Origin: Halorhodospira halophila SL1
GTDB taxonomy: Bacteria > Pseudomonadota > Gammaproteobacteria > Nitrococcales > Halorhodospiraceae
Assembly (NCBI RefSeq): GCF_000015585.1
Contig: NC_008789.1
Coordinates: 1,440,001 to 1,472,000, forward strand
DNA length: 32,000 nucleotides
Direction of reading: 5' to 3'
Under the pieces are notes generated by a model that did not search any database, was not told the origin of the DNA, and worked only from the letters and a program-made list of their open reading frames with translations. Positions 19,366-31,188 of the stretch are shown in pieces; position 1 is the first letter of the stretch; each line of letters starts with the position of its first letter. A program made the position numbers and the translations under genes.

Positions 19366-20190
19366 TCAGTGGTGGTGGTGATGGTGGTGGTGCGCGGCCG
19401 CCGCGCGGTGCGGGCAGCCGTCGCACTCGAGCATCGCCTGTCCCGCACGCGCCTCCTCCACCCGCTGGGCGATCAGTGCGAAGACCTCCGGTTCAAAACC
19501 GAGGTAATCCGCCAGGGCGAACGCCGTCTGCGGGTACTGAACCCGCAGACGCGCCACCTGCTGCTCAATACGCTCGATCAGCCGCCCGGTGAACAGGTAA
19601 TACGGCAGGACCACCTGCTGCGTCATGCCCAACAGGGAGTGACGCCGCACCACGGCCTCCAGGCGGGGGTGGGTGACGCCGGTGAAGGCGATATCGACCA
19701 GTTCGTGCTCGCCGCCCTCGTAGAGCCAGCGGCCCAGCCGCGCCAACTCCCCGTTGGCCGTACGATCCGAGGATCCGCGACCCAGCAGGATCACCCCGGT
19801 GGTCCGCGGATCGGGCACACTCAGGGCCTGCATGGCGTCACGCAGGCGGCGCTCGACCAGGCCCAGCGTCGTTTCACTCACGCCCAGATGGCGCGCCAGA
19901 CGGAAATCGACCCCCGGGTGCCGGGCACGGGCAGCCTCGATCTGCTCGGGCACCTCGAGCTTCACGTGCCCGGCGGCGTTAAGGATCAGTGGGACCGCGA
20001 TGACCCGATCCGCCCGCGCCGCGGCCCGATCCAGCCCCTCGCCAAGCAGCGGATCCGCGAACTCGATGAAACAGGTCTCCAGCAGCCAATCCGGGTAGTG
20101 CTCGGCCAGCAGGTCGGCGAACCGGCGGATCTCCTCGTTGCCGTCCTCCTGGCGCGAGCCATGCCCAATCAACAGGATACAGTCAGTCAT
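19366..20190 (-). CDS. cbiX: Sirohydrochlorin cobaltochelatase, long form (CbiX-L) with Cys motif and His8 tail
   Basis: Duplicated CbiX fold: ILLIGHGSR....NEE...FA and ILLGRGSSD..ANGE. The C-terminus MLECDGCPHRAAAAHHHHHHHH resembles the MxCxxC + poly-His tail known from Bacillus megaterium CbiX. Confidence 0.85.
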   Translation of the reverse strand: MTDCILLIGHGSRQEDGNEEIRRFADLLAEHYPDWLLETCFIEFADPLLGEGLDRAAARADRVIAVPLILNAAGHVKLEVPEQIEAARARHPGVDFRLARHLGVSETTLGLVERRLRDAMQALSVPDPRTTGVILLGRGSSDRTANGELARLGRWLYEGGEHELVDIAFTGVTHPRLEAVVRRHSLLGMTQQVVLPYYLFTGRLIERIEQQVARLRVQYPQTAFALADYLGFEPEVFALIAQRVEEARAGQAMLECDGCPHRAAAAHHHHHHHH

Positions 20191-20202: not shown

Positions 20203-20982
20203 TCAATTTTCGCGGCGGCGGAAACGGTGGCCGAAACCGGGGTCGTAAAGCCGTGAGCGCGCCGCCGGTGCCGCCTCCCGCGCCCCGAGCGTCGGACCGA
20301 CCAGGATCATGGTCTGGCTGTTGAGCCCCGCCGCGCGGCAGTCCGCGGCCAGGTCGCGGATGCAGGTACGCAGGACCTGTTCGACCCCGGGCCAGGAGGC
20401 GCGGTGGACCACCACCACCGGGGCGTCGTCGTCCCAGCCGCCACCGCGCAGGGCATCGGCCAGGCGTTCCAGGAGGGTGATCGACAGGTAGACACACAGG
20501 GTGCTGCCGTGCCGCGCCAGATCGGCAAGCTGTTCCCCCGCCGGCATCGGGGTGCGCCCCTCCACCCGGGTGAAGATCACCGTCTGCGTGCCCTCCGGCA
20601 GGGTCAGGCTCTCGCCGGCCGCCGCCGCCGCGGCCATGGCCGACGTGACCCCGGGAACCAGATGGACTGGGATCCCCGCGGCGTCCAGCGGGCGCACGAT
20701 CTCCACGAAGGCCCCGTATAGCCCCGGATCACCGGGTTGAAGGCGGACCACACAGCCCCCGGCGCGGGCGCGCTCGAGCAGCCAGTCCTGGATCTGTTCC
20801 AAGGTCATCCCTTTGGAGTCGGCGACCTCGCAGTGCGCCGGCGCCCAGTCGAGCACCTCGGCCGGCACCAGCGAACCGGCGTAGAGCACGGCGTCCGCCG
20901 CAGCCACCCGATCCCGCCCGCGAACCGTGATTAGATCGGCCGCCCCGGGACCGGCCCCCACAAACCAGACCTCCCCCTTCAT
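20203..20982 (-). CDS. cbiF: Cobalt-precorrin-4 C11-methyltransferase
   Basis: ATG at 20982 overlaps the ABC ATPase stop (ATGA). VWFVGAGPGAADLITVRG......ADAVLYAGSLVP, RLQPGDPGLYGA and VPGVTS fit CbiF/CobM. The tracked 338-aa version has a spurious Arg/Gly-rich extension. Confidence 0.9.
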   Translation of the reverse strand: MKGEVWFVGAGPGAADLITVRGRDRVAAADAVLYAGSLVPAEVLDWAPAHCEVADSKGMTLEQIQDWLLERARAGGCVVRLQPGDPGLYGAFVEIVRPLDAAGIPVHLVPGVTSAMAAAAAAGESLTLPEGTQTVIFTRVEGRTPMPAGEQLADLARHGSTLCVYLSITLLERLADALRGGGWDDDAPVVVVHRASWPGVEQVLRTCIRDLAADCRAAGLNSQTMILVGPTLGAREAAPAARSRLYDPGFGHRFRRREN

Positions 20983-21767
20983 CCGCGTCCCCTCTCTTGC
21001 AACTGGTAACCGGCCACAAACGGTGCCCGCTGATGCTCGACGACGTGAACGTCCACGTCGTAGGCGGCACGCAGAGTCGGCGTGTCGATGACGGCCTGCG
21101 GCGGGCCGTCGGCCATCACCCGGCCGTCGCGCAGGAGCACGATGCGGTCGGCCAGCTGTACGGCGATGTTGATATCGTGGAGCACCACCAGCACCCCCTG
21201 CCCCTGCTCCCGCGCACACTCGGTGAGGATCTCGATGGCGTCGCGCTTGTGCTTCATGTCCAGGTGGTTGGTCGGCTCATCGAGGAGCAGGAAGGGGGTC
21301 TGGCGAACCAGAGCCCGGGCGATGGCCGCCTTCTGCCGCTGCCCGCCGCTGATCTCGGTCAGCGGTGACTGGGCCAGGTCGGCCATGCCCAGACGCTGGA
21401 GCACCGCCTCGGCACGGGCAAGATCGGCCGGGTCGTGACGCCAACTCGCCCGGCGCAGGCCAAGCAACACGCTCTCAAGTACGGTCAGCGGGTAGACGGC
21501 ATCGGTGGTCTGCGCGACGTAGGAGAGCGAGCGGGCGATGCGGGCCTGGCGCTGCCCCTTCACGGGCTCACCGGCGATGGTGATGTGCCCGTGGCGCGGC
21601 CGCAGGATGCCGGTGATGCACTTGAGCAGGGTGCTCTTGCCGGAGCCGTTGGGCCCGATCAGGGCCACCACCTCGCCGGCGGCTACGCGGGTATCCACGC
21701 CCTGCAAGACCTCGCTGCGCCGATAGGCGTAGCGAACACCTCGTAGTTCGATGGCCGGACGGGTCAC
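20979..21767 (-). CDS. ABC importer ATP-binding protein (FepC/BtuD family)
   Basis: Walker A GPNGSGKSTLL, signature ISGGQRQKAAIARAL, Walker B LLLDEPTNHLD and H-loop VLHDIN. The GTG start at 21767 overlaps the permease stop (GTGA). Confidence 0.9.
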   Translation of the reverse strand: MTRPAIELRGVRYAYRRSEVLQGVDTRVAAGEVVALIGPNGSGKSTLLKCITGILRPRHGHITIAGEPVKGQRQARIARSLSYVAQTTDAVYPLTVLESVLLGLRRASWRHDPADLARAEAVLQRLGMADLAQSPLTEISGGQRQKAAIARALVRQTPFLLLDEPTNHLDMKHKRDAIEILTECAREQGQGVLVVLHDINIAVQLADRIVLLRDGRVMADGPPQAVIDTPTLRAAYDVDVHVVEHQRAPFVAGYQLQERGRG

Positions 21768-22855
21768 GGTCCCGACCCTCCTTCGCGGCGACGCAGGATC
21801 AGGTAGATGAACAGCGGCGAGCCGATGAAGGCCGTCACCACACCCACCGGCAGCACCACCGAAGCGAAGGCGTGCAACGACACCAAGTCGGCCAGGGCCA
21901 GCAGCAGTGCGCCGATCAGCGCTGCAGCCGGGATCAGGAAACGGTGATCCGAACCGATCAGGAGCCGGGCCAGATGGGGCGCCACCAGCCCCAGGAAGCC
22001 GATCCCACCGGTGAAGGCGACGGTCACCGCCACGAGAAGCGCCACCAGGAACATCAGTCCGATGCGCAGGCGCCCGACGGCAATCCCCAGGCTAGTGGCG
22101 GTTTCATCACCGAGCAGTAGTCGGTTCAGGTCGCCACTCTTCCACAGGAAGACCGGCAGCGTGACCGTCAACGCCACCGTGATGAACACGAAGCTCTCCC
22201 AGTCGGCACGGCTGAGGCTGCCCACGCTCCAGAACATGACCTCCCGGGTGGCATCGGCGTCGGCGAAGTAGATCAGCAGCGTCGTGGTGGCCCCGAAGAA
22301 GTACATCAGGGCGATCCCCGCGAGGATCAGGCTCATCGGCGTCGCCCCCTTCCACTGCCCGATGAGCAGGATGAGCAGCGACACCGCCATCGCAAAGAGG
22401 AAGGCATTGCCGACGATGCCGTAGACGCCGAAGGCCGAGAACCCGAAGATGATCGCCAGCGCCGCCCCCAGCGAGGCGCCGGAGGCGATCCCCAGGGTGA
22501 ACGGTGAGGCCATCGGATTGCGCAGCAGGCTCTGCAGGATCACCCCACCGAGCGCCAGCCCCATGCCGGCCACGACGGCGGTGGCCAGGCGCGGCAGGCG
22601 GATGTTCCAGACCACGTTCTCGGTCTGCGCGCTGACCCACGACGCCCCCAGCGGCCGACCCAGCACCGCCTGCACCACCTCGCTCAGCGGGATCCCCATG
22701 GGGCCGAGTCCCAGGCCAAGAACGAACGTCGCCACCAGGGCCGCAGCCAGGCCCAAAAGGATCAGGGTCTTCCACCAGATCGCCCGCGCGTAATCATCGA
22801 GCAGCCCGCCGGGAGGCGCTGGCCGGGAGGCGCTATCGGCGGTCAACTCAGTCAT
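21764..22855 (-). CDS. FecCD/BtuC-family ABC importer permease
   Basis: ATG at 22855 (MTELTADS...) overlaps the 3' end of the binding-protein gene by 8 nt. About 9-10 hydrophobic helices, with RLPR...AG..LA..G...Q...RNP.A.P...G and a C-terminal PVGVVTA.IG.P.F..L typical of FecCD. Confidence 0.85.
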   Translation of the reverse strand: MTELTADSASRPAPPGGLLDDYARAIWWKTLILLGLAAALVATFVLGLGLGPMGIPLSEVVQAVLGRPLGASWVSAQTENVVWNIRLPRLATAVVAGMGLALGGVILQSLLRNPMASPFTLGIASGASLGAALAIIFGFSAFGVYGIVGNAFLFAMAVSLLILLIGQWKGATPMSLILAGIALMYFFGATTTLLIYFADADATREVMFWSVGSLSRADWESFVFITVALTVTLPVFLWKSGDLNRLLLGDETATSLGIAVGRLRIGLMFLVALLVAVTVAFTGGIGFLGLVAPHLARLLIGSDHRFLIPAAALIGALLLALADLVSLHAFASVVLPVGVVTAFIGSPLFIYLILRRREGGSGP

Positions 22856-23963
22856 CGTCCAGGCTGCTGAGCTCCTGGAGCCGATCGTACAGCCCGGGGT
22901 CGCCGTAGAAGACCTCCAGGATCTCCTCACCGCGATCCCGGAGATCGACGTCGGCCATAGCCTCCGGGTAGAGCACCCGGGCCATGTGCACCAGGTCGAT
23001 CAGCCCGGTGGCCAGATCCCACCCCATGTAGGTGCCCTTGAAGCGGTGGATGCGTTCCGCCTCGACGGCCTTTACCCCGGAGAGCCGTTCATCATCCAGG
23101 ACCTCGTCACGGGCGACGCGGCTGGCCCGGGACGGGGTGTGGAGGAAGATGTGCGCCGGATCCCAGCTCACCAGCTCCTCGGCGCTGACCTCGCCGTCAC
23201 CACCGGGCCGACCAGCGGTCACCAGCTCGGCACCCAGCTGCTCGACGGGAAAGTAGAAGGAGACGTGGTTGTAGAGGTTGCGCCGGTGGGCCAGGTAGAT
23301 CCGTGGCGGTTCCTCGTCGGCGACCTGCTCCTGCACCTCGGAGACCGTCGCATCGTAGAAATCGAGCAGTTCTTCCGCCCGCTCTTCGCGACCGGTCACG
23401 GTGCCGAGCAGCCGATAGGCCTGCTCGATCTGCGCCTCAATGGCCTCCTCGGAGGCCCGCTCGCGGCCCAGGGTATTCACCGCGACCACGGGGACGCCGA
23501 GCTGCTGCTGGTAGCGCTCGGCCTGCTCGGCCATCGCCTCGTCGTCGTCGCCGCGGCTGAAGGCCCAGTAGATGAACAGATCCGGATCGGTGGCGAGCAC
23601 CCGCTCGGCGCTGAACTCCGACCCGGGCTGGCCGCCGCCGACCATGGCCACCTCGTCCAGGCGACCGAAGGCGCGGACTTCGATCGGCTTGGCCTCGGAA
23701 AAGCGCGAGCCGAACATGTCGCTGGGGATTCCGACCAGGCGATCCTCGACACCCAGGTGCAGCGCCATGCGGAAGGCATCGACATTGACCGTGGCGATCC
23801 GCTCCGCCGCCTCCGGAACTTCCACGCTGCGGCCGAGCATATCCTCGACCTCATGGGTATCCTGCGCGGGCCCATCGCGGCTTTCGTCGTTGGGGGTATC
23901 TCCGCACCCGCCGAGGATCAAACCGATCCCCGCGACGAGCGCGATGCACGGATGACGCTGCAT
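22848..23963 (-). CDS. Periplasmic substrate-binding lipoprotein of the iron-complex/cobalamin ABC importer class
   Basis: ATG at 23963 is preceded by GGAGGAG. Lipoprotein signal MQRHPCIALVAGIGLILGGCGD. It is the first gene after the cobalamin riboswitch and directly precedes the FecCD permease. Its body resembles class III binding proteins (PDLFIYW..., VVAVN). The ligand is inferred only from context. Confidence 0.78.
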   Translation of the reverse strand: MQRHPCIALVAGIGLILGGCGDTPNDESRDGPAQDTHEVEDMLGRSVEVPEAAERIATVNVDAFRMALHLGVEDRLVGIPSDMFGSRFSEAKPIEVRAFGRLDEVAMVGGGQPGSEFSAERVLATDPDLFIYWAFSRGDDDEAMAEQAERYQQQLGVPVVAVNTLGRERASEEAIEAQIEQAYRLLGTVTGREERAEELLDFYDATVSEVQEQVADEEPPRIYLAHRRNLYNHVSFYFPVEQLGAELVTAGRPGGDGEVSAEELVSWDPAHIFLHTPSRASRVARDEVLDDERLSGVKAVEAERIHRFKGTYMGWDLATGLIDLVHMARVLYPEAMADVDLRDRGEEILEVFYGDPGLYDRLQELSSLDDD

Positions 23964-24084
23964 GGCTCCTCCAGTCACTGGATCCGGGTACGCCATGCGG
24001 GGGGGCGGGTCGGAAACGGGCGCGCCGGGGCGCGGATGCAACGACCGTCACCGCCACGCACGGTTCCCCGCCGTGTGGCTGCGG

Positions 24085-24290
24085 CCCCCAGGCCGGTCTC
24101 CGGGCTTGCGAGCGGGGCCCCAGCCCCAAGCGCCGCGCCTTCCCGCACCGGGTGCCGGGGACACCGTGGATGCAGTGGCGATGCAGCGCCCGCACTCGCC
24201 TACCGTTGCGGGGACAGCGCCGGACTTGCCTGCGCCCGCGCAGGGCACAGTGCGCACCGACTTCCCGACCGTCCGCGGTGGCGCCGCACG
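24085..24290 (-). promoter_or_regulatory. Cobalamin (B12) riboswitch
   Basis: Read on the minus strand: GGTCGGGAAGTCGGTGCGCA (24251-24270), TCCCCGCAACGGTAGG (24199-24214), GCCACTG (24173-24179) and GGGAAGGCG (about 24135-24144). The B12 box AAGCCCGGAGACCGGCC (24091-24107) matches the consensus AGYCMGGAGACCKGCC. It lies in the 5' leader of the uptake/cbi gene string, about 127 nt before the ATG at 23963. Confidence 0.88.
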
Positions 24291-24498: not shown

Positions 24499-25674
24499 AT
24501 GGGCAAAGAGGCACACCTTCCGTCCTTCTGTGGCGATGCCACCGAAACCGGGGCACTCGATGTCCTGCCGCTCAGCGACCAGGAGCCGCACCTACGGCTC
24601 AGCGAACGCTTCGAACGACTGCGCGCCCATATCAACCAGGCGCTGCCCCACGGTGCGGTCCACCGCATCGCCGTGGCCATTTACGAGCCGGACGCCGATC
24701 GGCTCAAGACCTACGGCGCCGGCGGCGATGCACCCAGCCCGTTGGATCGTTACGAGACCAACCTGGCCGATACCCCCACCCTGCGTGCCCTCGCCGAGGC
24801 ACCGGGCGTACGGATCATCGACGATTACCAGGACCACCCCAGCCCCCGCCGCCATACCGCCAGCATCCGCGAGAGCGGTCTACGTTCCGGGATGATCCTG
24901 CCGCTGCACCACGAGCAGACCTTCGTCGGCTTCCTGTTCCTCAACTCCCGCCAGCCCGGCTATTTCCAGGGCCCGATCGTCAAGCAGCTAGCGCCGTACA
25001 TCGACCTGGGTCGCCTGCTGGCAATCACCTCCATCCGCACTACGCAGACCCTCCGGGGTGCGGCACGCACGGCCATGGCTTTCGGGCGCGCGCGGGACGA
25101 CGAGACCGGGGGACACCTGTCACGAATGGCGGAGTACAGCCGCCTCATCGCCCTGGAACTGGCCCAGACCCACCCCCTCAGCGACGAATACATCGAGATG
25201 GTCTACCAGTTCGCGCCGGTCCACGACGTGGGCAAGATCGCCGTCCCGGACGGCATCCTCCTTAAGCCGGGGCGACTCGCCGAGGAGGAGTTCGCGCAGA
25301 TGCGCGAACACGTCAGCCGCGGCGTGGCCATGGTGCTGGCCATGACCGAGGAGCTGGGCCTCAGCGAGGACCGACGCGCGGCCATCATGCGTAATATCGT
25401 CGCCTACCACCACGAGCGCCTGGACGGCAGCGGTTACCCGACCGGTGCGCGCGGCGACCAGATCCCTCTGGAGGGGCGCATCGTCGCCGTAGCCGACGTC
25501 TTCGACGCCCTGACCAGCGAACGCCCCTACAAGCGCCCCTGGGGGTTTACCGAGGCCGCCGACACCCTGCACGCCGAAGCGGCGGCCGGGAAGCTGTGCG
25601 CCGAGTGCGTGGCGGCCTTTCTGCGCCGAAGCGTCGAGATCGAAGCGATCCGCGGCCGTCACGGGGTCCGCTGA
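24499..25674 (+). CDS. HD-GYP domain c-di-GMP phosphodiesterase with an N-terminal GAF-like sensor domain
   Basis: HD-GYP hallmarks are intact: GGHLSRMAEYS, PVHDVGKIAVPD, EHV..G, YHHERLDGSGYPTG and VADVFDALTSERPYKRPW. The start is uncertain. I prefer ATG 24499 (GGAGA 4 nt upstream); alternatives are ATG 24457 and TTG 24424. Confidence 0.85.
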   Translation: MGKEAHLPSFCGDATETGALDVLPLSDQEPHLRLSERFERLRAHINQALPHGAVHRIAVAIYEPDADRLKTYGAGGDAPSPLDRYETNLADTPTLRALAEAPGVRIIDDYQDHPSPRRHTASIRESGLRSGMILPLHHEQTFVGFLFLNSRQPGYFQGPIVKQLAPYIDLGRLLAITSIRTTQTLRGAARTAMAFGRARDDETGGHLSRMAEYSRLIALELAQTHPLSDEYIEMVYQFAPVHDVGKIAVPDGILLKPGRLAEEEFAQMREHVSRGVAMVLAMTEELGLSEDRRAAIMRNIVAYHHERLDGSGYPTGARGDQIPLEGRIVAVADVFDALTSERPYKRPWGFTEAADTLHAEAAAGKLCAECVAAFLRRSVEIEAIRGRHGVR

Positions 25675-25675
25675 G

Positions 25676-26239
25676 CTAGCTGCGCGCCTCGACGCGGCCG
25701 CAGTAGGCCTGCGGGATCCGGTAGACGTAGACCGGGGCGTCCAACCGCACCGGGGGCTGGTAGATCGCGCTGGGCCGCCAACCGGGTATGCGGAAGGTGT
25801 TGCTGACCACCAGCGCACCGGGCGGCAACTCCGCCCGCCATCGCGGCTCCAGCTCGCGGATGGCCTCCAGGTGCAGGTAACAGACCACCGCGGCGGCATC
25901 GCTGCAGGAGACGCGGCGCAGATCGCGGCGCCTGAATTCGACGTTGGGCACCGGCCACAGCCACTGCAGCACGCAGGCGAAGAGCCACGGCAGGGGCGAG
26001 AGCTCGTAGCCAATGACCCTGGCCCGCGGGCACCTGCGCCCGACGCTGCGGGCCAGGCCACCCCACCCCGAACCGGCCTCGACCACCGTGCCCTCCAGCT
26101 CCGCCGGCAGCGCCGCCCGAACCAGCTCATGACCCAAGCGACTGGAGGGCAGCGGCGAGATGCCGGTGACCATCGTATAGCCGACGATCAGCAGCATCCC
26201 CCCCAGCGTAACGACGAAGATCAACGCTTCCAGGAACAC
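25676..26239 (-). CDS. Small membrane-anchored class I SAM-dependent methyltransferase (187 aa)
   Basis: GTG at 26239 with GGAGG 4 nt upstream. N-terminal TM helix FLEALIFVVTLGGMLLIVGY; motif I VVEAGSGWGGL; a later acidic/aromatic strand pattern (VIGYELSP, VVCYL). Its stop is 1 nt from the convergent HD-GYP stop. Confidence 0.7.
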   Translation of the reverse strand: MFLEALIFVVTLGGMLLIVGYTMVTGISPLPSSRLGHELVRAALPAELEGTVVEAGSGWGGLARSVGRRCPRARVIGYELSPLPWLFACVLQWLWPVPNVEFRRRDLRRVSCSDAAAVVCYLHLEAIRELEPRWRAELPPGALVVSNTFRIPGWRPSAIYQPPVRLDAPVYVYRIPQAYCGRVEARS

Positions 26240-26349: not shown

Positions 26350-27519
26350 ATGAATCAGCGGGCCATCCCCACCAAGCGCGCCACCGTGCAGCCGAACGAC
26401 CTGGTGGTCGGTAAGCCCGTCCCCTATGATATTGAGGACGCCTACGGCCATCTGCTGTTGCGGCGCGGATCGATCCTGCGCTCCCGAGAGCAGCTGGAGC
26501 GGCTGCTGCAGATCGGCCGGACCCCCTACCACGTCGCTGCCGGACGCGAGGACACCGGCGGGATCTCGAGGCGTCGCGAGCTGGCCCTGGCCGCCTTCCG
26601 CAACCCCTTCGACCTGATCTATCAGATCTCCCGAGCGCTGCAAGAGACCTTCAAATGGGTCGGCGAGGACAACGAGCGCTTCCTCCGCCGCCTCGACCAC
26701 CTGGCCAGCCGCATCGGCGACCTGGTCGAGCGCGACGCCGATGCCGCCATCGGTGCCGCTCACCTCGATGAGGCGTTTGCCTACTCCATCCGCCACCCGA
26801 TCCGCCAGGCGGTCCTCTGCGACGTCGTCGGCAGCCAGCTGGGCATCCCGGACAGCGAGCGACGCTCCATCGTCCTCGCTGCCCTGTCGGCGAACATCGG
26901 CATGCTCGAGACCCAGGATCGCCTGGCCCAGCAGACTACGCCGCTCGACGCCAACCAGCGCAGGGATCTGGAAGAGCATCCGATACGTTCGGTCGAACGC
27001 CTCTCCGCCGCCGGGGTCGAGGATACAACCTGGATCCAGGTCGTCGCCCAACACCACGAACGCCTCGACGGCAGCGGCTACCCCAACGGCCTGCGCAAAG
27101 ATCAAATCTGCCGGGGAGCGCGACTGCTCTCCCTCGCCGACACCTACCTGGCGATGATCAGCAACCGTGTCTACCGACCCGCCACCGCGGTCCGGGAAGC
27201 CCTGCTGGAACTGATGGATCAGAGTGGAGAGATCTACGACCGGGATATCCTCTCGGGGCTGATCCAGACCATCGGCATCTACCCGGCCGGCAGTTTTGTC
27301 GCCTTGGACAGCGGCGAACGCGGGGTCGTCATCCACCGCGGCCATCGCGGGGCCAATCCGGTGGTGGCGGTCCTGATCAAGGCCAACGGCCAGCCCACGG
27401 CGCGCCCCCTTTACCGGGACACCAGCCAGACGGACATGCCCAGCGTCGCCTCTCTGGAGCCCACGCACCAGCTGACGCAGCGCTTCCAGCTCGCCTCGCT
27501 GTGGGGCTACGATTCCTAG
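26350..27519 (+). CDS. HD-GYP-family protein with a degenerate HD dyad and a DUF3391-like N-terminus (likely non-catalytic)
   Basis: QHHERLDGSGYPNGL and LADTYLAMISNRVYRPA are conserved. At the position of the LHDIGK motif the sequence reads LSANIGM (Ala-Asn at 26890-26895). The N-terminus VQPNDLVVGKPVPYDIEDAYGHLLLRRGSIL fits the DUF3391 pattern. I prefer ATG 26350 because a TAGAAT -10-like box (26316-26321) overlaps the alternative ATG at 26320. Confidence 0.8.
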   Translation: MNQRAIPTKRATVQPNDLVVGKPVPYDIEDAYGHLLLRRGSILRSREQLERLLQIGRTPYHVAAGREDTGGISRRRELALAAFRNPFDLIYQISRALQETFKWVGEDNERFLRRLDHLASRIGDLVERDADAAIGAAHLDEAFAYSIRHPIRQAVLCDVVGSQLGIPDSERRSIVLAALSANIGMLETQDRLAQQTTPLDANQRRDLEEHPIRSVERLSAAGVEDTTWIQVVAQHHERLDGSGYPNGLRKDQICRGARLLSLADTYLAMISNRVYRPATAVREALLELMDQSGEIYDRDILSGLIQTIGIYPAGSFVALDSGERGVVIHRGHRGANPVVAVLIKANGQPTARPLYRDTSQTDMPSVASLEPTHQLTQRFQLASLWGYDS

Positions 27520-27550: not shown

Positions 27551-28789
27551 ATGGCCGCCTTACAACGCCTGCTCAGTTCCGCCTGGCTGCTCCACCTGCT
27601 GGTGCTAGCCGCCCTGGCAGGCTGGATCCTCGTGCTCAACGCCCCGTTCCCGCGCCCCGCGGTCGCGCTGCTGGAGGCCCACCAGCTGGAGATTCTTGGC
27701 GTCGGGGGCGGCCTCGTGGCCGTGCTGGCGCTGCTCTACCGGCGCGCCAACCTGGCCCTCCAGGCGGCGGTCATCAGCCTGTCGATCGCTGGCCTGGGCG
27801 TAGCGCCCTCACCTGCCCACGGCGTCACAGCCGCTGCCATCCTCTTGCCGATCAATATCCTGATCCTGGCGCTACTCGACGAACGCGGTCTGCTAAGCCG
27901 GGATGGGCTGTGGCGCTGCGCGGCCCTGGTGCTGCAGGTCCTGCTGGTGCTGGGCCTTTTCCGCCACCAGCCGGCTTGGCTGGAGGCCCTGGCGGCGACG
28001 CATTTCCTGCCTGCGGCCGTCAGCAGCTGGAGCAGTCTACCCGACCAGGGCCTGCTGCTCGGCGTCCTGGCCGTTGCCGGCCTGCTCTCCTGGGCCCTGC
28101 TCCACCCCAACCCGCCCCATATCGGCGCCTTCAGCGCGCTGGTCACGGCAACCGTCGGCCTGGAGCTGAGCCTGATGCGCCACGGGAGCCTGGTGCTGCC
28201 TACCCTGCTGGCCGTCGTCGCCCTCCACCTGCTGCTCTTCGCCGTGTTGCAGGAGGCCCACCGCATGGCCTTCCGTGATGGGCTCACCGGCTTGCCCAAC
28301 CGGCGCGCTATGGACACCCTGACGCAGGGGCTGAGCGGCCGCTACACCATCGCCATGATGGACATCGACCACTTCAAGGCGTTTAACGATACCTACGGGC
28401 ACGAGATCGGCGACCAGGTGCTGCGCCGTGTAGCCTCAAATATCGGCCGTGTCGGCGCAGGCGGCCGGCCCTTCCGCTACGGCGGTGAGGAGTTCTCCGT
28501 GGTCTTTCCGGGCCGCAGCCCGGATGAGGCTGTCGGGGCACTGGAGGCCGTGCGCCAGGCGATCGCCGACACCCCGTTTCGCCTGCGCAGCGCCGACCGG
28601 CCGGCGGACGATAAGCGTGGCAGTCGCGAACGCTCGGGCCAGCGGGGTGAGCAGGAGACCCGGATTACCATCAGCATCGGCGTCGCCGAGCCCGAATCCA
28701 CCTCGGCGAGCGCCGACGACGTCGTCCAGGCCGCCGACCAGGCGCTTTACCGGGCCAAGAAGGGCGGACGCAACCGCCTGGCTCGGTAG
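27551..28789 (+). CDS. Diguanylate cyclase (GGDEF) with a polytopic (~7 TM) N-terminal domain
   Basis: GGAGA lies upstream of the ATG at 27551. About 240 aa of hydrophobic helices are followed by RDGLTGLPNRR, DIDHFKAFNDTYGHEIGDQVL, the active-site RYGGEEF (28481-28495) and ADQALYRAKKGGRNR. Confidence 0.9.
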   Translation: MAALQRLLSSAWLLHLLVLAALAGWILVLNAPFPRPAVALLEAHQLEILGVGGGLVAVLALLYRRANLALQAAVISLSIAGLGVAPSPAHGVTAAAILLPINILILALLDERGLLSRDGLWRCAALVLQVLLVLGLFRHQPAWLEALAATHFLPAAVSSWSSLPDQGLLLGVLAVAGLLSWALLHPNPPHIGAFSALVTATVGLELSLMRHGSLVLPTLLAVVALHLLLFAVLQEAHRMAFRDGLTGLPNRRAMDTLTQGLSGRYTIAMMDIDHFKAFNDTYGHEIGDQVLRRVASNIGRVGAGGRPFRYGGEEFSVVFPGRSPDEAVGALEAVRQAIADTPFRLRSADRPADDKRGSRERSGQRGEQETRITISIGVAEPESTSASADDVVQAADQALYRAKKGGRNRLAR

Positions 28790-28846
28790 AAACCCACCGC
28801 GAGAACCACTACGGGATTGCAGACTGCCGATAAGGAGCTTTCCGGC

Positions 28847-29590
28847 ATGAGGAGCGAGCACAACACCACCTACGCCGAGACGGTGTGGGTCATCAAGACC
28901 GGACGCACCCTGCCCCCTCTGCGCTGGCAGGGCGACTTTGAGGACTGGATCGGCGCCGGCCTGGGGGGCACGCCCTGGCGCACCGTAGACGCCACTGACG
29001 GCCCCGCCTCCCTGCCGGACCCTTTACGCTCGGCCGGAATCATCGTCACGGGCTCGCCGGCAATGGTCTCCCATCGCGAGCCGTGGAGCGAGGCGGCGGC
29101 CGAATGGCTGTCCCGGGCCGCTCACGCGGATATCCCGATTCTGGGGATCTGCTACGGCCACCAGTTGCTGGCCCACGCGCTGGGCGGACGCGCCGGACCC
29201 AACCCACGGGGCCGGGAGATCGGCACGGTCTCGGTCCAGCGCCTGGCGCCGGCCGGCGACGACCCCTTATTCGCCCACCTGCCGGAGCGCTTCCCGGCCC
29301 ACGTCACCCACGAGGAGTCCGTCCTGGAACTCCCGGAGGGGGCCGTCACGCTGGCCGCCAACGATCACGACGCCTACCAGGCCTTCCGCTGGGGAAGACA
29401 CGCCTGGGGCGTGCAGTTCCACCCGGAATTCGACACCGCCATCACCCGCGGCTACATCTTCCAGCGCCGCCCCGACCTGCGCCGGGAGGGCTTCACCCCC
29501 CTGGCCCTCTACCGCGGGGTCGAGGCGACGCCAGAGGCGACGGGGCTGCTCAAGCGCTTCGCTGGCTACGCAACTGCCTGGGCACGCTAG
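28847..29590 (+). CDS. Class I glutamine amidotransferase-like protein (GuaA-N/GATase1 family)
   Basis: AAGGAG lies 9 nt upstream of ATG 28847. The nucleophile elbow ILGICYGHQLLAHALGG and the HPE triad element (WGVQFHPEF) are present. Confidence 0.8.
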   Translation: MRSEHNTTYAETVWVIKTGRTLPPLRWQGDFEDWIGAGLGGTPWRTVDATDGPASLPDPLRSAGIIVTGSPAMVSHREPWSEAAAEWLSRAAHADIPILGICYGHQLLAHALGGRAGPNPRGREIGTVSVQRLAPAGDDPLFAHLPERFPAHVTHEESVLELPEGAVTLAANDHDAYQAFRWGRHAWGVQFHPEFDTAITRGYIFQRRPDLRREGFTPLALYRGVEATPEATGLLKRFAGYATAWAR

Positions 29591-29633
29591 CTAGCGGCCC
29601 GGGCTGCGTGGCCGCGCCCCCGGCCGCCAGCTA
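29588..29633. terminator. Imperfect GC-rich hairpin spanning both stop codons of convergent genes
   Basis: TAGCT-A-GCGGCC (29588-29599) pairs with GGCCGC-C-AGCTA (29622-29633): 11 bp with one mismatch and a 22-nt partly self-pairing loop. No U-tract. Confidence 0.3.
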
Positions 29634-30728
29634 CTCAGAGGAACCGCCGACGACGATGTTGGGGAATGCGCTGCCGGTGCTGCGCTCGCGCAGCGAGAGC
29701 TGAGCCGCCACACTGCGCGCCATGTGTCGGTAGTCGGTGGCGATCCGGCCCTCGGGGTCGGCGGCCACTGTGGGGTAGCCGCTATCCGACTGCTCGCGGA
29801 TGGTGATGTCCAGCGGCAACGAGCCGAGCAGATGCACCCCGTACTGGCTGGCCATGGCCGCCCCGCCGCCGCTGCCGAAGATGTGCTCCTCATGGCCGCA
29901 GTTCGAGCAGATGTGGGTACTCATGTTCTCGACGATGCCGAGCACCGCCACATCCACCTTCTCGAACATGCGCAGCCCCTTGCGCGCATCGAGCAGCGCG
30001 ATGTCCTGGGGGGTGGTGACGATCACACCACCGCTGACCGGCACCTTCTGGGCCAGGGTGAGCTGGATGTCGCCGGTCCCCGGAGGCATATCGACGATCA
30101 GGTAGTCGAGCGCCTCCCACGCGGTCTCGGTGAGCAGCTGCTCCAGGGCCTGGGTGACCATGGGGCCACGCCAGATCATCGGGGTCTCCTCGTCGACCAG
30201 GAAGCCGGCCGACATCACCTGGATGCCGTGCCCGAGCATCGGCTGCATGTGCTTGCCGTCTTTCGACTCGGGCTGCCCGCGAACACCGAGCATACGCGGC
30301 TGGCTCGGGCCGTAGATGTCGGCGTCGAGCACGCCGACCCGGGCGCCATCGGCCTGCAGGGCGAGCGCCAGGTTGGCCGTAACCGTCGACTTGCCCACCC
30401 CCCCCTTGCCGGAGGCAACGGCGATGATGTTCTTGATCTCGTCCCGCGCTTTCACCCCCGGCTGCACGGCGTGGGCGTGGATCCGCGTCTGGACCGACAC
30501 CTGAACATCCCGGCACCCGGTGGCTTGCTGGATCGCCCCGCGCAACTCGTCGGTGAGCGTCTCGCGGTACCCCCCGGCCGGGTAGCCGAGCGACACCTCT
30601 ACGCGGACGCTCTCACCGTCGACAGTGATTTCACCCAGGCACCCGGCGGAAATCAGATCCGTGCCCAAGTAGTAATCCTGGACCTGACTCACCCCCTGCT
30701 CCACGGCCTCGCGGGTCAGATTCGTCAT
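29631..30728 (-). CDS. apbC: Fe-S cluster carrier ATPase ApbC/Mrp
   Basis: ATG at 30728 (MTNLTREAVE...). N-terminal DUF59-like domain, deviant Walker A IIAVASGKGGVGKSTVTANLALAL and the CxxC motif ICSNCGH. The tracked 394-aa version has a spurious extension. Confidence 0.9.
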   Translation of the reverse strand: MTNLTREAVEQGVSQVQDYYLGTDLISAGCLGEITVDGESVRVEVSLGYPAGGYRETLTDELRGAIQQATGCRDVQVSVQTRIHAHAVQPGVKARDEIKNIIAVASGKGGVGKSTVTANLALALQADGARVGVLDADIYGPSQPRMLGVRGQPESKDGKHMQPMLGHGIQVMSAGFLVDEETPMIWRGPMVTQALEQLLTETAWEALDYLIVDMPPGTGDIQLTLAQKVPVSGGVIVTTPQDIALLDARKGLRMFEKVDVAVLGIVENMSTHICSNCGHEEHIFGSGGGAAMASQYGVHLLGSLPLDITIREQSDSGYPTVAADPEGRIATDYRHMARSVAAQLSLRERSTGSAFPNIVVGGSSE

Positions 30729-30765
30729 ACCGTTCCCCCGGCAGTCGTTGTCCCTACCGCGCCAG

Positions 30766-31188
30766 TCAGGGTGCCAGCGGCACACCCGATTGATACGCGC
30801 GGGTCCCGTCCTCATAATGCTCGTCCTTCCAGAATGGCGCCCGGACCTTCAGCGTGTCGATGGCGTAGCGCCCCGCCTCGAAGGCCTCGGCCCGGTGGGC
30901 TGCACGCACCACTACCACCACGCTCTCCTCGCCCACAGCCAACTCGCCAACGCGGTGCACGATTCGGCACGCCTGCACGCCGTAGCGCTCGGTCACCTCA
31001 GCCTCCAACTCGGCGAGCACACGCTCGGCCATCGGGCGATAAGCCGAGTAGGCGATGGCCGCCACACGTCGCCCCTCGTGGTGATCCCGCACCGTGCCGC
31101 CGAAGACCACCAGGGCCCCGGCCGAGGGGTCGGCGGTCTCGGTCAGCAGCGGCTCCAGCGCGATGGGGTCGTCGGTCACGCGATTCAT
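30766..31188 (-). CDS. moaE: Molybdopterin synthase catalytic subunit MoaE (140 aa)
   Basis: ATG at 31188 is preceded by GAGGAGG. GALVVFGGTVRD...G..V..I.Y.AY..MAE, VHR.GEL.VGE.SV and APFWK are MoaE hallmarks. The tracked 345-aa ORF is a read-through in another frame across the ABC gene. Confidence 0.85.
   Translation of the reverse strand: MNRVTDDPIALEPLLTETADPSAGALVVFGGTVRDHHEGRRVAAIAYSAYRPMAERVLAELEAEVTERYGVQACRIVHRVGELAVGEESVVVVVRAAHRAEAFEAGRYAIDTLKVRAPFWKDEHYEDGTRAYQSGVPLAP

What the first reader, a model, noticed from the sequence alone, without database searches (positions are those of the whole stretch)
26350..27519. Second HD-GYP protein has lost the HD metal-binding dyad (LHDIGK replaced by LSANIGM) but keeps the GYP loop
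The neighbouring paralogue (24499-25674) retains PVHDVGK. This one reads AALSANIGMLE at the equivalent position (Ala-Asn codons at 26890-26895) yet conserves HHERLDGSGYPNGL and the distal D....A.....R.YR. It is therefore probably catalytically dead. It may act as a c-di-GMP (or GGDEF-protein) binding receptor or adaptor, analogous to degenerate GGDEF/EAL receptors. Such roles are far less documented for HD-GYP domains.
Basis: partly seen in the sequence, partly recalled or inferred. Interest (0 to 1): 0.55.

Follow-up and report, generated by a model that had tools for sequence, protein, structure and literature searches.

The report
HD-GYP protein lacking its catalytic dyad
This Halorhodospira gene encodes a well-conserved relative of a cyclic-di-GMP-degrading enzyme that has lost key catalytic residues and probably senses the signal instead of destroying it, a kind of protein already known from other bacteria.

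Summary
ORF 26350-27519 (+), 389 aa, is an HD-GYP protein of Halorhodospira halophila. Ala181-Asn182 (codons 26890-26895) sit exactly where HD should be. HHERLDGSGYP, the distal Asp and R-x-Y-R are intact.

Three more residues that are essential in the model enzyme PmGH are also replaced: Lys to Met185, Asp308 to Leu267 and Asp183 to Phe143. There is no HD dipeptide anywhere in the protein.

This is not local decay of a paralogue:
- The neighbouring GAF-HD-GYP is only distantly related.
- dN/dS is 0.11.
- The protein belongs to a large old clade. Of 252 sampled members, 89% lack the dyad His, 65% have Asn for Asp and none has the Lys. His210/His235/His236/Asp264 and GYP are essentially invariant.

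Eight of nine c-di-GMP contact residues of the crystallised degenerate receptor DvhD are kept or conservatively replaced.

The most likely role is a non-hydrolysing c-di-GMP sensor or adaptor. In most Halorhodospira orthologs it is probably co-transcribed with a membrane GGDEF cyclase, but that linkage is lineage-specific.

Degenerate HD-GYPs are already documented (PA2572, HnoD, VC1087, VCA0895, ECA3548, DvhD). This is a new member of a known kind and of modest interest. The invariant His triad leaves a residual or altered metal-dependent activity open.

The parts
26350..27519 (+). Gene for the 389-aa degenerate HD-GYP protein (AN-GYP)
   Evidence: ORF. 100% identical to the NCBI H. halophila protein P0001. 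Pfam HD_5 at 90 bits. AF2 model pLDDT 90.3, pTM 0.89. dN/dS 0.11 against the 90% ortholog in L090.
26380..26520 (+). N-terminal small beta-rich domain (about residues 11-57), followed by a helical linker up to about residue 120
   Evidence: Secondary structure and pLDDT. Gly40 is invariant and L35/L36/L52/G56 are nearly invariant. No Pfam match, and DUF3391 was not hit in any of 97 relatives. Foldseek aligns 318-334 columns to the 309-residue Bd1817 structure 3TM8, which covers its N-terminal domain.
26707..27279 (+). HD-GYP domain (about residues 120-310)
   Evidence: phmmer alignments to V-cGAP3, DvhD, PmGH, PA4781 and Bd1817. Foldseek matches 9RBZ at E 2.5e-9, 3TM8 at 5.7e-9, 4R8Z and 4MCW.
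26890..26895 (+). Codons GCG AAC, giving Ala181-Asn182 in place of the HD dyad
   Evidence: for the sequence. Column equivalence. All Halorhodospira orthologs P0001-P0010 read [ST]-A-N.
26902..26904 (+). Met185 in place of the HDxGK lysine (PmGH K225)
   Evidence: Lys is never found at this column in 252 family members, where it is M/L/I. The K225A substitution abolishes PmGH activity (PMC4159591).
27052..27084 (+). HHERLDGSGYP motif (residues 235-245), intact
   Evidence: In 252 family members H235 is 252/252, H236 251/252, E237 250/252 and Y244 251/252.
27139..27177 (+). D264-T-Y-L267-A-M269-I-S-N-R273-V-Y275-R276. The distal metal-ligand Asp is kept, the PmGH D308 position is Leu, and R-x-Y-R is the nucleotide-phosphate/base clamp.
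   Evidence: alignments to PmGH and DvhD. Contact residues M646, R650, Y652 and R653 of DvhD are listed in PMC13090378 section 10. Family conservation.
27274..27459 (+). C-terminal five-stranded SH3/KOW/Tudor-like beta-barrel (about residues 309-370)
   Evidence: Strands 316-319, 324-329, 338-343, 349-357 and 366-368. G314 is invariant and P312, V317, L319, E323 and R356 are nearly invariant. No Pfam match. The isolated-domain model has pLDDT 76. Its best Foldseek hits are the NusG-CTD/KOW, KapB and Tudor domains, all non-significant with E at least 0.04, and none is a PilZ domain.
27551..28789 (+). Downstream membrane GGDEF diguanylate cyclase, probably co-transcribed (31-bp gap, GGAG ribosome-binding site, no terminator)
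   Evidence: Pfam GGDEF 1e-31. TIGR00254. GGEEF at residue 311, DID at 271, about 7-8 hydrophobic segments in residues 1-238. Gap sequence. No terminator-like site. The same gene lies downstream in L001, L084 and L090.
24499..25674 (+). Neighbouring intact GAF-HD-GYP phosphodiesterase (PmGH-type), a distant paralogue
   Evidence: Pfam HD_5, HD and a weak GAF match. All ligand columns are intact, including HDVGK, HHE, ADVFDA and RPYK. Only 55 residues are alignable to the target by BLASTP.
25676..26239 (-). Conserved 187-aa ORF between the two HD-GYP genes, divergent from the target gene. Function unknown; it is context only and may not belong to the module.
   Evidence: Weak Methyltransf_25 match at E 0.0013, below the cut-off. 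Counterparts of 185-188 aa occupy the same position in L084, L085 and L090.

Best explanation
The gene encodes a soluble three-part protein. It has a small N-terminal beta domain with a helical stalk, an HD-GYP fold, and a C-terminal SH3-like barrel.

The HD-GYP domain can no longer carry out the canonical metal-hydroxide hydrolysis of c-di-GMP. It has lost the HD dyad (Ala-Asn), the adjacent Lys, and the equivalents of PmGH D308 and D183. It still forms the nucleotide pocket: the GYP Tyr, the R-x-Y-R clamp, and Tyr145, Leu199, Arg204 and Met269.

It most likely acts as a non-degrading c-di-GMP sensor or adaptor. By analogy with DvhD, ligand binding would change the stalk/dimer geometry and be passed on through the N- or C-terminal domains or the exposed GYP loop to a partner. 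In Halorhodospira it forms a local module with the membrane GGDEF cyclase encoded immediately downstream and the intact GAF-HD-GYP phosphodiesterase next door.

- **Shown here:** the residue replacements, the fold, clade-wide conservation, purifying selection and the gene order.
- **Inferred:** catalytic inactivity, c-di-GMP binding, and the identity of any partner.
For: **Catalytic residues replaced.**
- The dyad and further catalytic residues are replaced at verified columns.
- In PmGH the substitutions H221A, D222A, K225A, D308A and D183A each essentially abolish activity (PMC4159591).

**HD-less relatives are inactive.**
- VC1087 and VCA0895 (PMC4212101).
- PA2572, the YN-GYP protein (PMC3749722).
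- DvhD, which nevertheless binds c-di-GMP with a Kd of about 99 nM (PMC13090378).

**Binding pocket retained.** The DvhD contact residues map onto the query as follows (alignment).

| DvhD contact | Query residue |
|---|---|
| Y523 | Y145 |
| L577 | L199 |
| K582 | R204 |
| Y621 | Y244 |
| M646 | M269 |
| R650 | R273 |
| Y652 | Y275 |
| R653 | R276 |
| E668 | S292 (differs) |

The best structural match of the AF2 model is the DvhD HD-GYP domain.

**Functional constraint.**
- dN/dS is 0.11, against 0.17 and 0.25 for the two neighbouring signalling genes.
- Orthologs at 60-90% identity all keep [ST]AN[IVL]GM.
- The clade is large, and the xN state arose once at the base of 170 of 253 sampled sequences.

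**Link to the GGDEF gene.** It lies 31-46 bp downstream on the same strand in the window, L090, L001 and L084. No terminator is predicted between the two genes in the window.
Against: - No biochemical data exist for any member of this clade.
- His149, His210, His235, His236 and Asp264 are retained, and the last four are essentially invariant in 252 relatives. The characterised receptor or adaptor HD-GYPs (DvhD, HnoD, ECA3548) lost the HH pair. This pattern suggests a metal site is still needed, which fits an enzyme at least as well as a receptor.
- The HDxGK lysine is kept in DvhD (K563 by my count of the alignment) but is Met here.
- E668, the base-specificity contact of DvhD, is not conserved.
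- The GGDEF partner is absent in the 71% ortholog (L085) and from most distant family members. A GGDEF-specific adaptor role therefore cannot be the family's general function.
Confidence: 0.6

Rival explanations
1. The protein is still an enzyme. The invariant His210/His235/His236/Asp264 (with His149 and Asn182) hold one metal, or a differently built centre. The protein would then hydrolyse c-di-GMP slowly, or act on another substrate such as pGpG or 3'3'-cGAMP.
For: - H210, H235, H236, E237 and D264 are 99-100% conserved across 252 diverse relatives, even though the dyad varies. Selection of this kind on metal ligands is not expected in a purely metal-free receptor. DvhD, HnoD and ECA3548 lost HH.
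- His149 co-varies with residue 182: H149 pairs with N182 in 146 sequences, while R or Q at 149 mostly pairs with D182. This hints at a tuned site rather than a decaying one.
- The best PDB sequence match is the cGAMP-specific V-cGAP3, which shares the R-x-Y-R variant of the RxxK motif.
- VCA0681 is active despite lacking D308 (PMC4212101).
Against: - H221A, D222A and K225A each abolish PmGH activity.
- Every HD-less HD-GYP assayed so far is inactive.
- The residue replacing His (A, M, Q, S, C, Y, F or R across the clade) is not a consistent metal ligand.
- The HH pair and Glu could be conserved for folding of the GYP loop or for phosphate contacts.
Confidence: 0.2
2. The protein is a nucleotide-independent protein-protein adaptor. 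It would use the exposed GYP loop to bind and regulate the adjacent GGDEF cyclase or other GGDEF proteins, as RpfG does in Xanthomonas.
For: - The GYP motif is required for the RpfG::GGDEF interaction, together with a DxD motif in the GGDEF partner (PMC3749722).
- GYP is invariant in the clade.
- The downstream GGDEF has a D-I-D at residues 271-273. I could not confirm that this is the same DxD as in the RpfG partners.
- A GGDEF gene lies downstream on the same strand in 4 of 7 Halorhodospira-type loci, and a divergent dCache-PAS-GGDEF gene is present in 2 more.
Against: - A GGDEF neighbour is absent in L085 and in most distant family members.
- The D-x-D in DIDHFK is nearly universal in active GGDEF domains (my own knowledge), so it does not discriminate.
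- Conservation of the R-x-Y-R clamp and of Tyr145 and Leu199 argues that nucleotide binding matters.
Confidence: 0.12
3. The gene is a decaying, non-functional duplicate of the neighbouring HD-GYP gene.
For: Only the loss of the dyad itself and the proximity of another HD-GYP gene.
Against: - dN/dS is 0.11 at dS 0.52, lower than for both neighbouring signalling genes.
- Full-length orthologs are intact across Halorhodospira.
- The replacement is clade-wide and ancient.
- The neighbour is alignable over only 55 residues and has a different architecture.
Confidence: 0.01

Closest known systems
DvhD of Desulfovibrio vulgaris (degenerate HD-GYP c-di-GMP receptor, PDB 9RBZ/9RC0; PMC13090378, 2026)
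   Same: - An HD-GYP fold without the HD dyad (SQ there, AN here).
- It is the best Foldseek match of the model (E 2.5e-9) and the second-best PDB sequence match.
- 8 of 9 canonical-site c-di-GMP contacts are identical or conservative.
- It shares the R-x-Y-R variant of the RxxK motif.
- DvhD is shown to bind but not hydrolyse c-di-GMP.
   Different: - DvhD is a dCache-TM-PAS-HD-GYP membrane receptor in a Lap-like adhesin operon. The query is soluble, with a small N-terminal beta domain and a C-terminal SH3-like barrel.
- DvhD also lost HH (to MN) and the distal Asp (to N), but keeps the HDxGK lysine. The query keeps HH and Asp and lost the Lys.
- The bridging-site residues P567 and K520 are not conserved (Gln189 and Ala142 here).
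PA2572 of Pseudomonas aeruginosa (REC-YN-GYP; PMC3411652, PMC3749722)
   Same: A variant dyad with Asn in place of Asp (YN there, AN here). GYP is retained. The protein is enzymatically inactive yet has regulatory phenotypes, and an uncharacterised C-terminal region has been reported for it (from my recollection of Ryan et al. 2009; not verified here).
   Different: PA2572 is a response regulator with an N-terminal REC domain that binds the chemoreceptor PA2573. The query has no REC domain. I could not obtain the PA2572 sequence, so the relationship was not tested.
Bd1817 of Bdellovibrio bacteriovorus (DUF3391-HD-GYP, PDB 3TM8)
   Same: The overall N-terminal domain, stalk and HD-GYP layout. 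Foldseek aligns 318-334 columns (E 5.7e-9, TM 0.59 normalised to Bd1817). Bd1817 is also an unconventional HD-GYP.
   Different: - Bd1817 keeps HD and the metal centre but lacks the GYP tyrosine.
- It has no C-terminal barrel.
- Neither the query nor any of 97 relatives matches Pfam DUF3391.
HnoD (Shewanella/Vibrio VC1087), VCA0895 and ECA3548: other HD-less HD-GYPs
   Same: They have lost the HD dyad. They show no PDE activity in vitro or in vivo and act through protein-protein interaction or c-di-GMP binding.
   Different: Their architectures differ (REC-, PilZN-PilZ- or large membrane proteins). HnoD and ECA3548 have also lost HHE (to QLE and ANE), which the query retains.
RpfG::GGDEF complexes of Xanthomonas campestris
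   Same: An HD-GYP protein that signals through GYP-loop contacts with GGDEF proteins, independently of catalysis.
   Different: RpfG has an intact HD dyad and a REC domain. Its GGDEF partners are not encoded next to it. No interaction was tested here.

Membership tests
HD-GYP domain (Pfam HD_5 PF13487 / ProSite PS51832) | Significant match to the domain profile and an HD-GYP fold | tested here: met
   HD_5 at 90 bits against a cut-off of 27.2. Foldseek matches 9RBZ, 3TM8, 4R8Z and 4MCW with E from 2.5e-9 to 5e-7.
HD-GYP domain (catalytically competent c-di-GMP phosphodiesterase) | HD dyad within HDxGK (PmGH H221, D222, K225) | tested here: not met
   Ala181, Asn182 and Met185 occupy these columns.
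HD-GYP domain (catalytically competent c-di-GMP phosphodiesterase) | Remaining metal ligands (PmGH H189, H250, H276, H277, D305) | tested here: met
   H149, H210, H235, H236 and D264.
HD-GYP domain (catalytically competent c-di-GMP phosphodiesterase) | HHExxDGxGYP motif | tested here: met
   HHERLDGSGYP at residues 235-245.
HD-GYP domain (catalytically competent c-di-GMP phosphodiesterase) | Structural or catalytic Asp residues D183 and D308 of PmGH | tested here: not met
   Phe143 and Leu267 occupy these positions (alignment). The D308 column is never Asp in 252 relatives.
HD-GYP domain (catalytically competent c-di-GMP phosphodiesterase) | Hydrolysis of c-di-GMP | not testable with these tools
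   This needs an enzyme assay.
Degenerate HD-GYP c-di-GMP receptors (DvhD type) | Loss of metal ligands together with retention of the canonical c-di-GMP contact residues | tested here: inconclusive
   The dyad is lost and 8 of 9 contacts are kept or conservatively replaced. However, HH and the distal Asp are retained here, unlike in DvhD.
Degenerate HD-GYP c-di-GMP receptors (DvhD type) | dCache-TM-PAS-HD-GYP architecture and a Lap-like operon | tested here: not met
   No transmembrane segment (maximum 19-residue hydropathy 1.38). No PAS or Cache domain. The neighbours are GGDEF and GAF-HD-GYP genes.
Degenerate HD-GYP c-di-GMP receptors (DvhD type) | High-affinity c-di-GMP binding without turnover | not testable with these tools
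   This needs ITC, DRaCALA or nanoDSF.
Bd1817 family (DUF3391-HD-GYP) | N-terminal DUF3391 (PF11871) domain | tested here: not met
   No Pfam hit even at E up to 10 for residues 1-139. None of 97 relatives hits PF11871.
Bd1817 family (DUF3391-HD-GYP) | Structural similarity across the N-terminal domain, stalk and HD-GYP domain | tested here: inconclusive
   Foldseek aligns 318-334 columns to 3TM8 with TM 0.48/0.59 but an rmsd of about 12 A.
RpfG family / PA2572 / HnoD (REC-HD-GYP response regulators) | N-terminal receiver (REC) domain | tested here: not met
   No Response_reg match. The NosR-family model matches only the HD-GYP part, at 93.6 bits against a cut-off of 400.
PilZ-type c-di-GMP receptor (considered for the C-terminal barrel) | PilZ fold or profile match | tested here: not met
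   No Pfam match. The Foldseek hits of the isolated domain are KOW, Tudor or SH3-like, none is a PilZ domain, and all have E of at least 0.04.

The most novel reading that the evidence does not exclude
The query may represent a large, uncharacterised proteobacterial clade: N-terminal beta domain, then xN/xD-GYP domain, then SH3-like barrel. At least 150 clusters at 50% identity score E of 1e-111 or better.

In this clade the HD dyad, its Lys and the D308 position were replaced long ago, yet the His triad, the distal Asp and GYP stayed invariant. The clade would be a distinct functional class of HD-GYP protein, in one of two forms:
- a metal-assisted but non-hydrolysing cyclic-dinucleotide receptor with its own output domain; or
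- a phosphodiesterase with a re-engineered (mononuclear or Asn-ligated) metal centre and possibly a different substrate.
Probability: 0.3. Interest if true: 0.55.

Novelty: new member of a known kind. Interest (0 to 1): 0.3.

Why it matters
- Degenerate GGDEF and EAL domains are textbook c-di-GMP receptors. For HD-GYP there are only a few studied cases and one liganded structure (DvhD, 2026).
- This protein shows that a whole soluble clade has kept an HD-less HD-GYP under strong selection. It is present in Halorhodospira, in other Gammaproteobacteria and in many Burkholderiales.
- The pattern of retained residues (His triad, Asp, GYP and R-x-Y-R) differs from the receptors studied so far.
- Genome inventories that count this protein as a 'class II phosphodiesterase' probably overestimate c-di-GMP-degrading capacity.
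- The H. halophila trio of an intact GAF-HD-GYP, the AN-GYP protein and a membrane GGDEF is a compact candidate for a local c-di-GMP signalling module.
- The general idea is already established, so the gain is incremental unless biochemistry reveals a retained metal site with a new role.

Tried and rejected
- **Displaced dyad.** Rejected. There is no HD dipeptide anywhere in the 389 residues, and four alignment methods agree on the column.
- **Pseudogene or recent decaying duplicate.** Rejected by dN/dS of 0.11 and clade-wide conservation. BLASTP also shows that the neighbour is only a distant paralogue.
- **C-terminal barrel as a PilZ domain.** Rejected. There is no Pfam hit, and the Foldseek neighbours are KOW, Tudor or SH3-like and non-significant.
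- **N-terminal domain as DUF3391 by sequence.** Not supported, with 0 of 97 relatives matching.
- **Family-wide operon partner.** None was found. The neighbourhoods of distant members differ from one another.
- **Genome-collection scan.** Only about 10 of the 80 loci were true family members, and no Halorhodospira genome was returned. Orthologous loci were obtained instead through exact-protein look-ups.
- **Literature search for variant names.** The terms MN-GYP, AN-GYP, YD-GYP, FD-GYP, RD-GYP and QN-GYP returned nothing.
- **PA2572.** I could not obtain its sequence, so its relationship to this clade is untested.
- **Model geometry.** The geometry of the remaining ligands and any docking of the C-terminal barrel on the active site could not be measured.
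- **First hmmalign run.** The first run with --trim gave a wrong column map. It was redone without trimming.
Full report
**1. What is in the sequence**

The ORF 26350-27519 (+) encodes 389 residues. It is 100% identical to an NCBI 'HD-GYP domain-containing protein' of Halorhodospira halophila, so the window comes from that organism. Bases 26875-26910 translate to LAALSANIGMLE. Pfam HD_5 matches residues 152-300 at 90 bits, against a gathering score of 27.2.

**2. Is AN really the HD column?**

Four independent routes say yes.
- phmmer against PDB sequences aligns the protein to V-cGAP3, DvhD, PmGH, PA4781 and Bd1817.
- Counting along the PmGH alignment reproduces the published ligand numbers. 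It gives H189→H149, H221→A181, D222→N182, K225→M185, H250→H210, H276/H277→H235/H236 and D305→D264. It also gives D308→L267, E185→Y145 and D183→F143.
- MAFFT with 120 homologs plus the neighbouring paralogue puts AALSANIGML in the same columns as the paralogue's FAPVHDVGKI. hmmalign of 263 sequences agrees.
- An AlphaFold2 model built on 97 relatives is confident (pLDDT 90.3, pTM 0.89). Its best PDB matches are HD-GYP structures.

The protein has no HD dipeptide anywhere (translation).

**3. More than the dyad is gone**

In PmGH the substitutions H221A, D222A, K225A, D308A and D183A each essentially abolish c-di-GMP hydrolysis (PMC4159591). The query carries Ala, Asn, Met, Leu and Phe at those five positions. 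The rest of the ligand set is intact: H149, H210, H235, H236 and D264. So are HHERLDGSGYP and the R273-x-Y275-R276 clamp.

**4. Not a decaying copy**

- The adjacent GAF-HD-GYP gene (24499-25674) keeps every catalytic residue. It is alignable to the target by BLASTP only over 55 residues around the GYP motif. The two are ancient paralogues with different architectures.
- Against the 90%-identical ortholog (L090) the target has dN 0.056 and dS 0.518, so dN/dS is 0.11. The intact GAF-HD-GYP gives 0.17 and the GGDEF gene 0.25.
- All ten Halorhodospira-type orthologs at 60-100% identity read [ST]-A-N-[IVL]-G-M.

**5. A clade-wide trait**

A profile search of 1.84 billion cluster representatives returned 150 full-length representatives, all with E of 1e-111 or better. 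I combined these with the first search and examined 252 full-length family members.

| Dyad | Count |
|---|---|
| MN | 77 |
| AN | 56 |
| HD | 28 |
| RD | 20 |
| YD | 18 |
| FD | 12 |
| QN | 11 |
| SN | 10 |
| CD | 7 |
| CN | 7 |

- 89% lack the His and 65% have Asn for Asp.
- The Lys column is never Lys, and the D308 column is never Asp.
- Only 21 of 252 combine H149 with HD.
- By contrast, H210 and H235 are 252/252, H236 is 251, E237 is 250, Y244 is 251, D264 is 249 (plus 3 Glu), R273 is 240 and R276 is 241.
- In a rough neighbour-joining tree rooted on the paralogue, the xN state arises once, at the base of a group of 170 of 253 sequences that includes the query.
- His-less dyads with an intact HH pair are also common outside this clade: 16 of 66 other HD-GYP ORFs from the genome scan have them. 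This agrees with the remark by Galperin and Chou that many HD-GYP domains carry active-site substitutions (bioRxiv 10.1101/2021.11.05.467447).

**6. Anatomy**

The model shows four parts.
- A small beta-rich N-terminal domain (about residues 11-57) and helical linkers.
- The HD-GYP helical domain (about 120-310).
- A five-stranded C-terminal barrel (316-368).

Neither terminal domain has a Pfam match, and none of 97 relatives hits DUF3391. Foldseek nevertheless aligns 318-334 columns to Bd1817, which includes its N-terminal domain. The isolated C-terminal domain (pLDDT 76) resembles KOW, Tudor and SH3-like barrels, but only non-significantly (E at least 0.04). It is not PilZ-like. No transmembrane segment is predicted.

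**7. Can it still bind c-di-GMP?**

The degenerate HD-GYP of DvhD (dyad SQ, HH→MN) was crystallised with c-di-GMP. It binds with a Kd of about 99 nM and does not hydrolyse the ligand (PMC13090378). I transferred its canonical-site contacts through the alignment. My residue count reproduces the paper's K520, Y523, P567, R569, L577, K582, Y621, M646, R650, Y652 and R653.

| DvhD contact | Query residue |
|---|---|
| Y523 | Y145 |
| L577 | L199 |
| K582 | R204 |
| Y621 | Y244 |
| M646 | M269 |
| R650 | R273 |
| Y652 | Y275 |
| R653 | R276 |
| E668 | S292 |

Eight of nine are identical or conservative, and most are well conserved in the clade. The DvhD HD-GYP domain is also the top structural match. 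This supports retained nucleotide binding, although active enzymes share the same residues. The R-x-x-R form of the RxxK motif is shared with DvhD and with the cGAMP-specific V-cGAP3. A cGAMP ligand therefore cannot be excluded. The adjacent cyclase has the canonical N...D guanine-recognition residues (FNDTYGHEIGD) typical of c-di-GMP synthases; that assessment rests on my own knowledge.

**8. Genomic context**

The membrane GGDEF gene (27551-28789) starts 31 bp downstream behind a GGAG. It has GGEEF, DID, about 7-8 hydrophobic segments and no RxxD I-site. No terminator-like site lies between the two genes.

| Locus (identity to query, where given) | GGDEF context |
|---|---|
| L090 (90%), L001 (66%), L084 (64%) | Same downstream GGDEF gene |
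| L082/L086 (about 60%) | Divergent dCache-PAS-GGDEF gene instead |
| L085 (71%) | No GGDEF neighbour |
| L002-L011, L083, L087, L088 (distant members) | None within the flanks |
| L089 (Lysobacter) | dCache-GGDEF gene 700 bp downstream |

The GGDEF linkage is a lineage-specific arrangement, not a family signature. A conserved 185-188-aa ORF of unknown function lies divergently upstream in four loci.

**9. Mechanism**

The best reading (confidence about 0.6) is a non-hydrolysing c-di-GMP sensor or adaptor. The pocket binds the nucleotide. By analogy with DvhD, binding would change the stalk/dimer geometry, and the signal would pass through the terminal domains or the GYP loop to a partner. In Halorhodospira the protein forms a local module with the co-transcribed cyclase and the nearby intact phosphodiesterase.

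The residue replacements, fold, selection and gene order are shown here. Inactivity, ligand binding and partner identity are inferred.

The main rival (about 0.2) is a retained or re-engineered metal-dependent activity. It is suggested by the invariance of the His triad and distal Asp, which the known receptor and adaptor HD-GYPs (DvhD, HnoD, ECA3548) lost. A GYP-mediated, nucleotide-independent GGDEF adaptor of the RpfG type is a further possibility (about 0.12). The pseudogene reading is refuted.

**10. Comparison with known systems and novelty**

HD-less HD-GYP proteins are already documented:
- PA2572, with YN-GYP (PMC3411652, PMC3749722);
- VC1087/HnoD and VCA0895 (PMC4212101);
- ECA3548 and HnoD;
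- Bordetella PdeE, with QD-GYP (PMC12805831);
- DvhD, the structurally proven receptor.

The present protein differs in architecture and in which residues it retains. No member of its clade appears to have been studied; a search for the variant motif names found nothing. It is a new member of a known kind. It overstates how undocumented the phenomenon is. It also treats an ancient clade trait as a local loss next to a 'paralogue'.

Interest is modest (0.3). It would rise if biochemistry showed that the invariant His triad holds a metal with a new role.

Noticed in passing
window 24094-24267 (-): A cobalamin riboswitch (Rfam RF00174, 49.1 bits, E 1.5e-9). It lies upstream of a btuF-like periplasmic binding-protein gene (22848-24041, -), which is followed by a FecCD permease (21764-22930, -) and an ABC ATPase (20979-21767, -). 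The same three transporter genes flank the HD-GYP cluster in L085 and L090. The riboswitch sits in the divergent intergenic region shared with the GAF-HD-GYP gene.
   Followed up: partly
window 19366-20190 (-): A 274-aa ORF that ends in eight consecutive histidines (...AAAAHHHHHHHH). By eye it looks like a CbiX-type cobaltochelatase with a His-rich tail. Its family was not checked with any tool.
   Followed up: no
window 25676-26239 (-): A 187-aa ORF between the two HD-GYP genes, divergent from the target gene. Counterparts of 185-188 aa without Pfam hits occupy the same place in L084, L085 and L090, but not in L001. The only hit is a weak Methyltransf_25 match (E 0.0013, 19.8 bits against a cut-off of 27).
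   Followed up: partly
window 27551-28789 (+): The GGDEF protein has a highly charged insert (about RSADRPADDKRGSRERSGQRGEQETR) inside the GGDEF domain that splits the Pfam match in two. It has no RxxD inhibitory site upstream of GGEEF. Its N-terminal half, with about 7-8 hydrophobic segments, matches no Pfam family.
   Followed up: partly
loci L012-L081 (genome scan): Among 66 HD-GYP ORFs outside the query's clade that carry HHExxDGxGY, 16 also lack the dyad His (LD, AD, QD, FD, CD, SD, MD, HT, MN) while keeping HH. His-less dyads therefore seem common across HD-GYP proteins in general. The sample is biased towards relatives of the query.
   Followed up: partly
family alignment: The first ligand His (query H149) co-varies with dyad position 2. 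H149 pairs with Asn182 in 146 sequences. Arg or Gln at position 149 mostly pairs with Asp182 (45 sequences against 15). YD and FD members almost always have Arg at position 149. This is unexplained and might reflect two different rebuilt sites.
   Followed up: no
proteins P0187, P0195, P0216, P0255: Four family representatives are about 500 aa long. They match the profile over residues 1-380 and carry an additional C-terminal extension of about 120 residues, which was not examined.
   Followed up: no
window 28817-29590 (+) and 29631-30815 (-): A class-I glutamine amidotransferase gene follows the GGDEF gene, in the window and in L090. Next comes a convergent Mrp/ApbC-like ATPase gene. In L085 the GGDEF and GATase pair is missing, and the Mrp-like gene directly follows the degenerate HD-GYP gene. 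This suggests the pair was gained or lost as a unit.
   Followed up: partly
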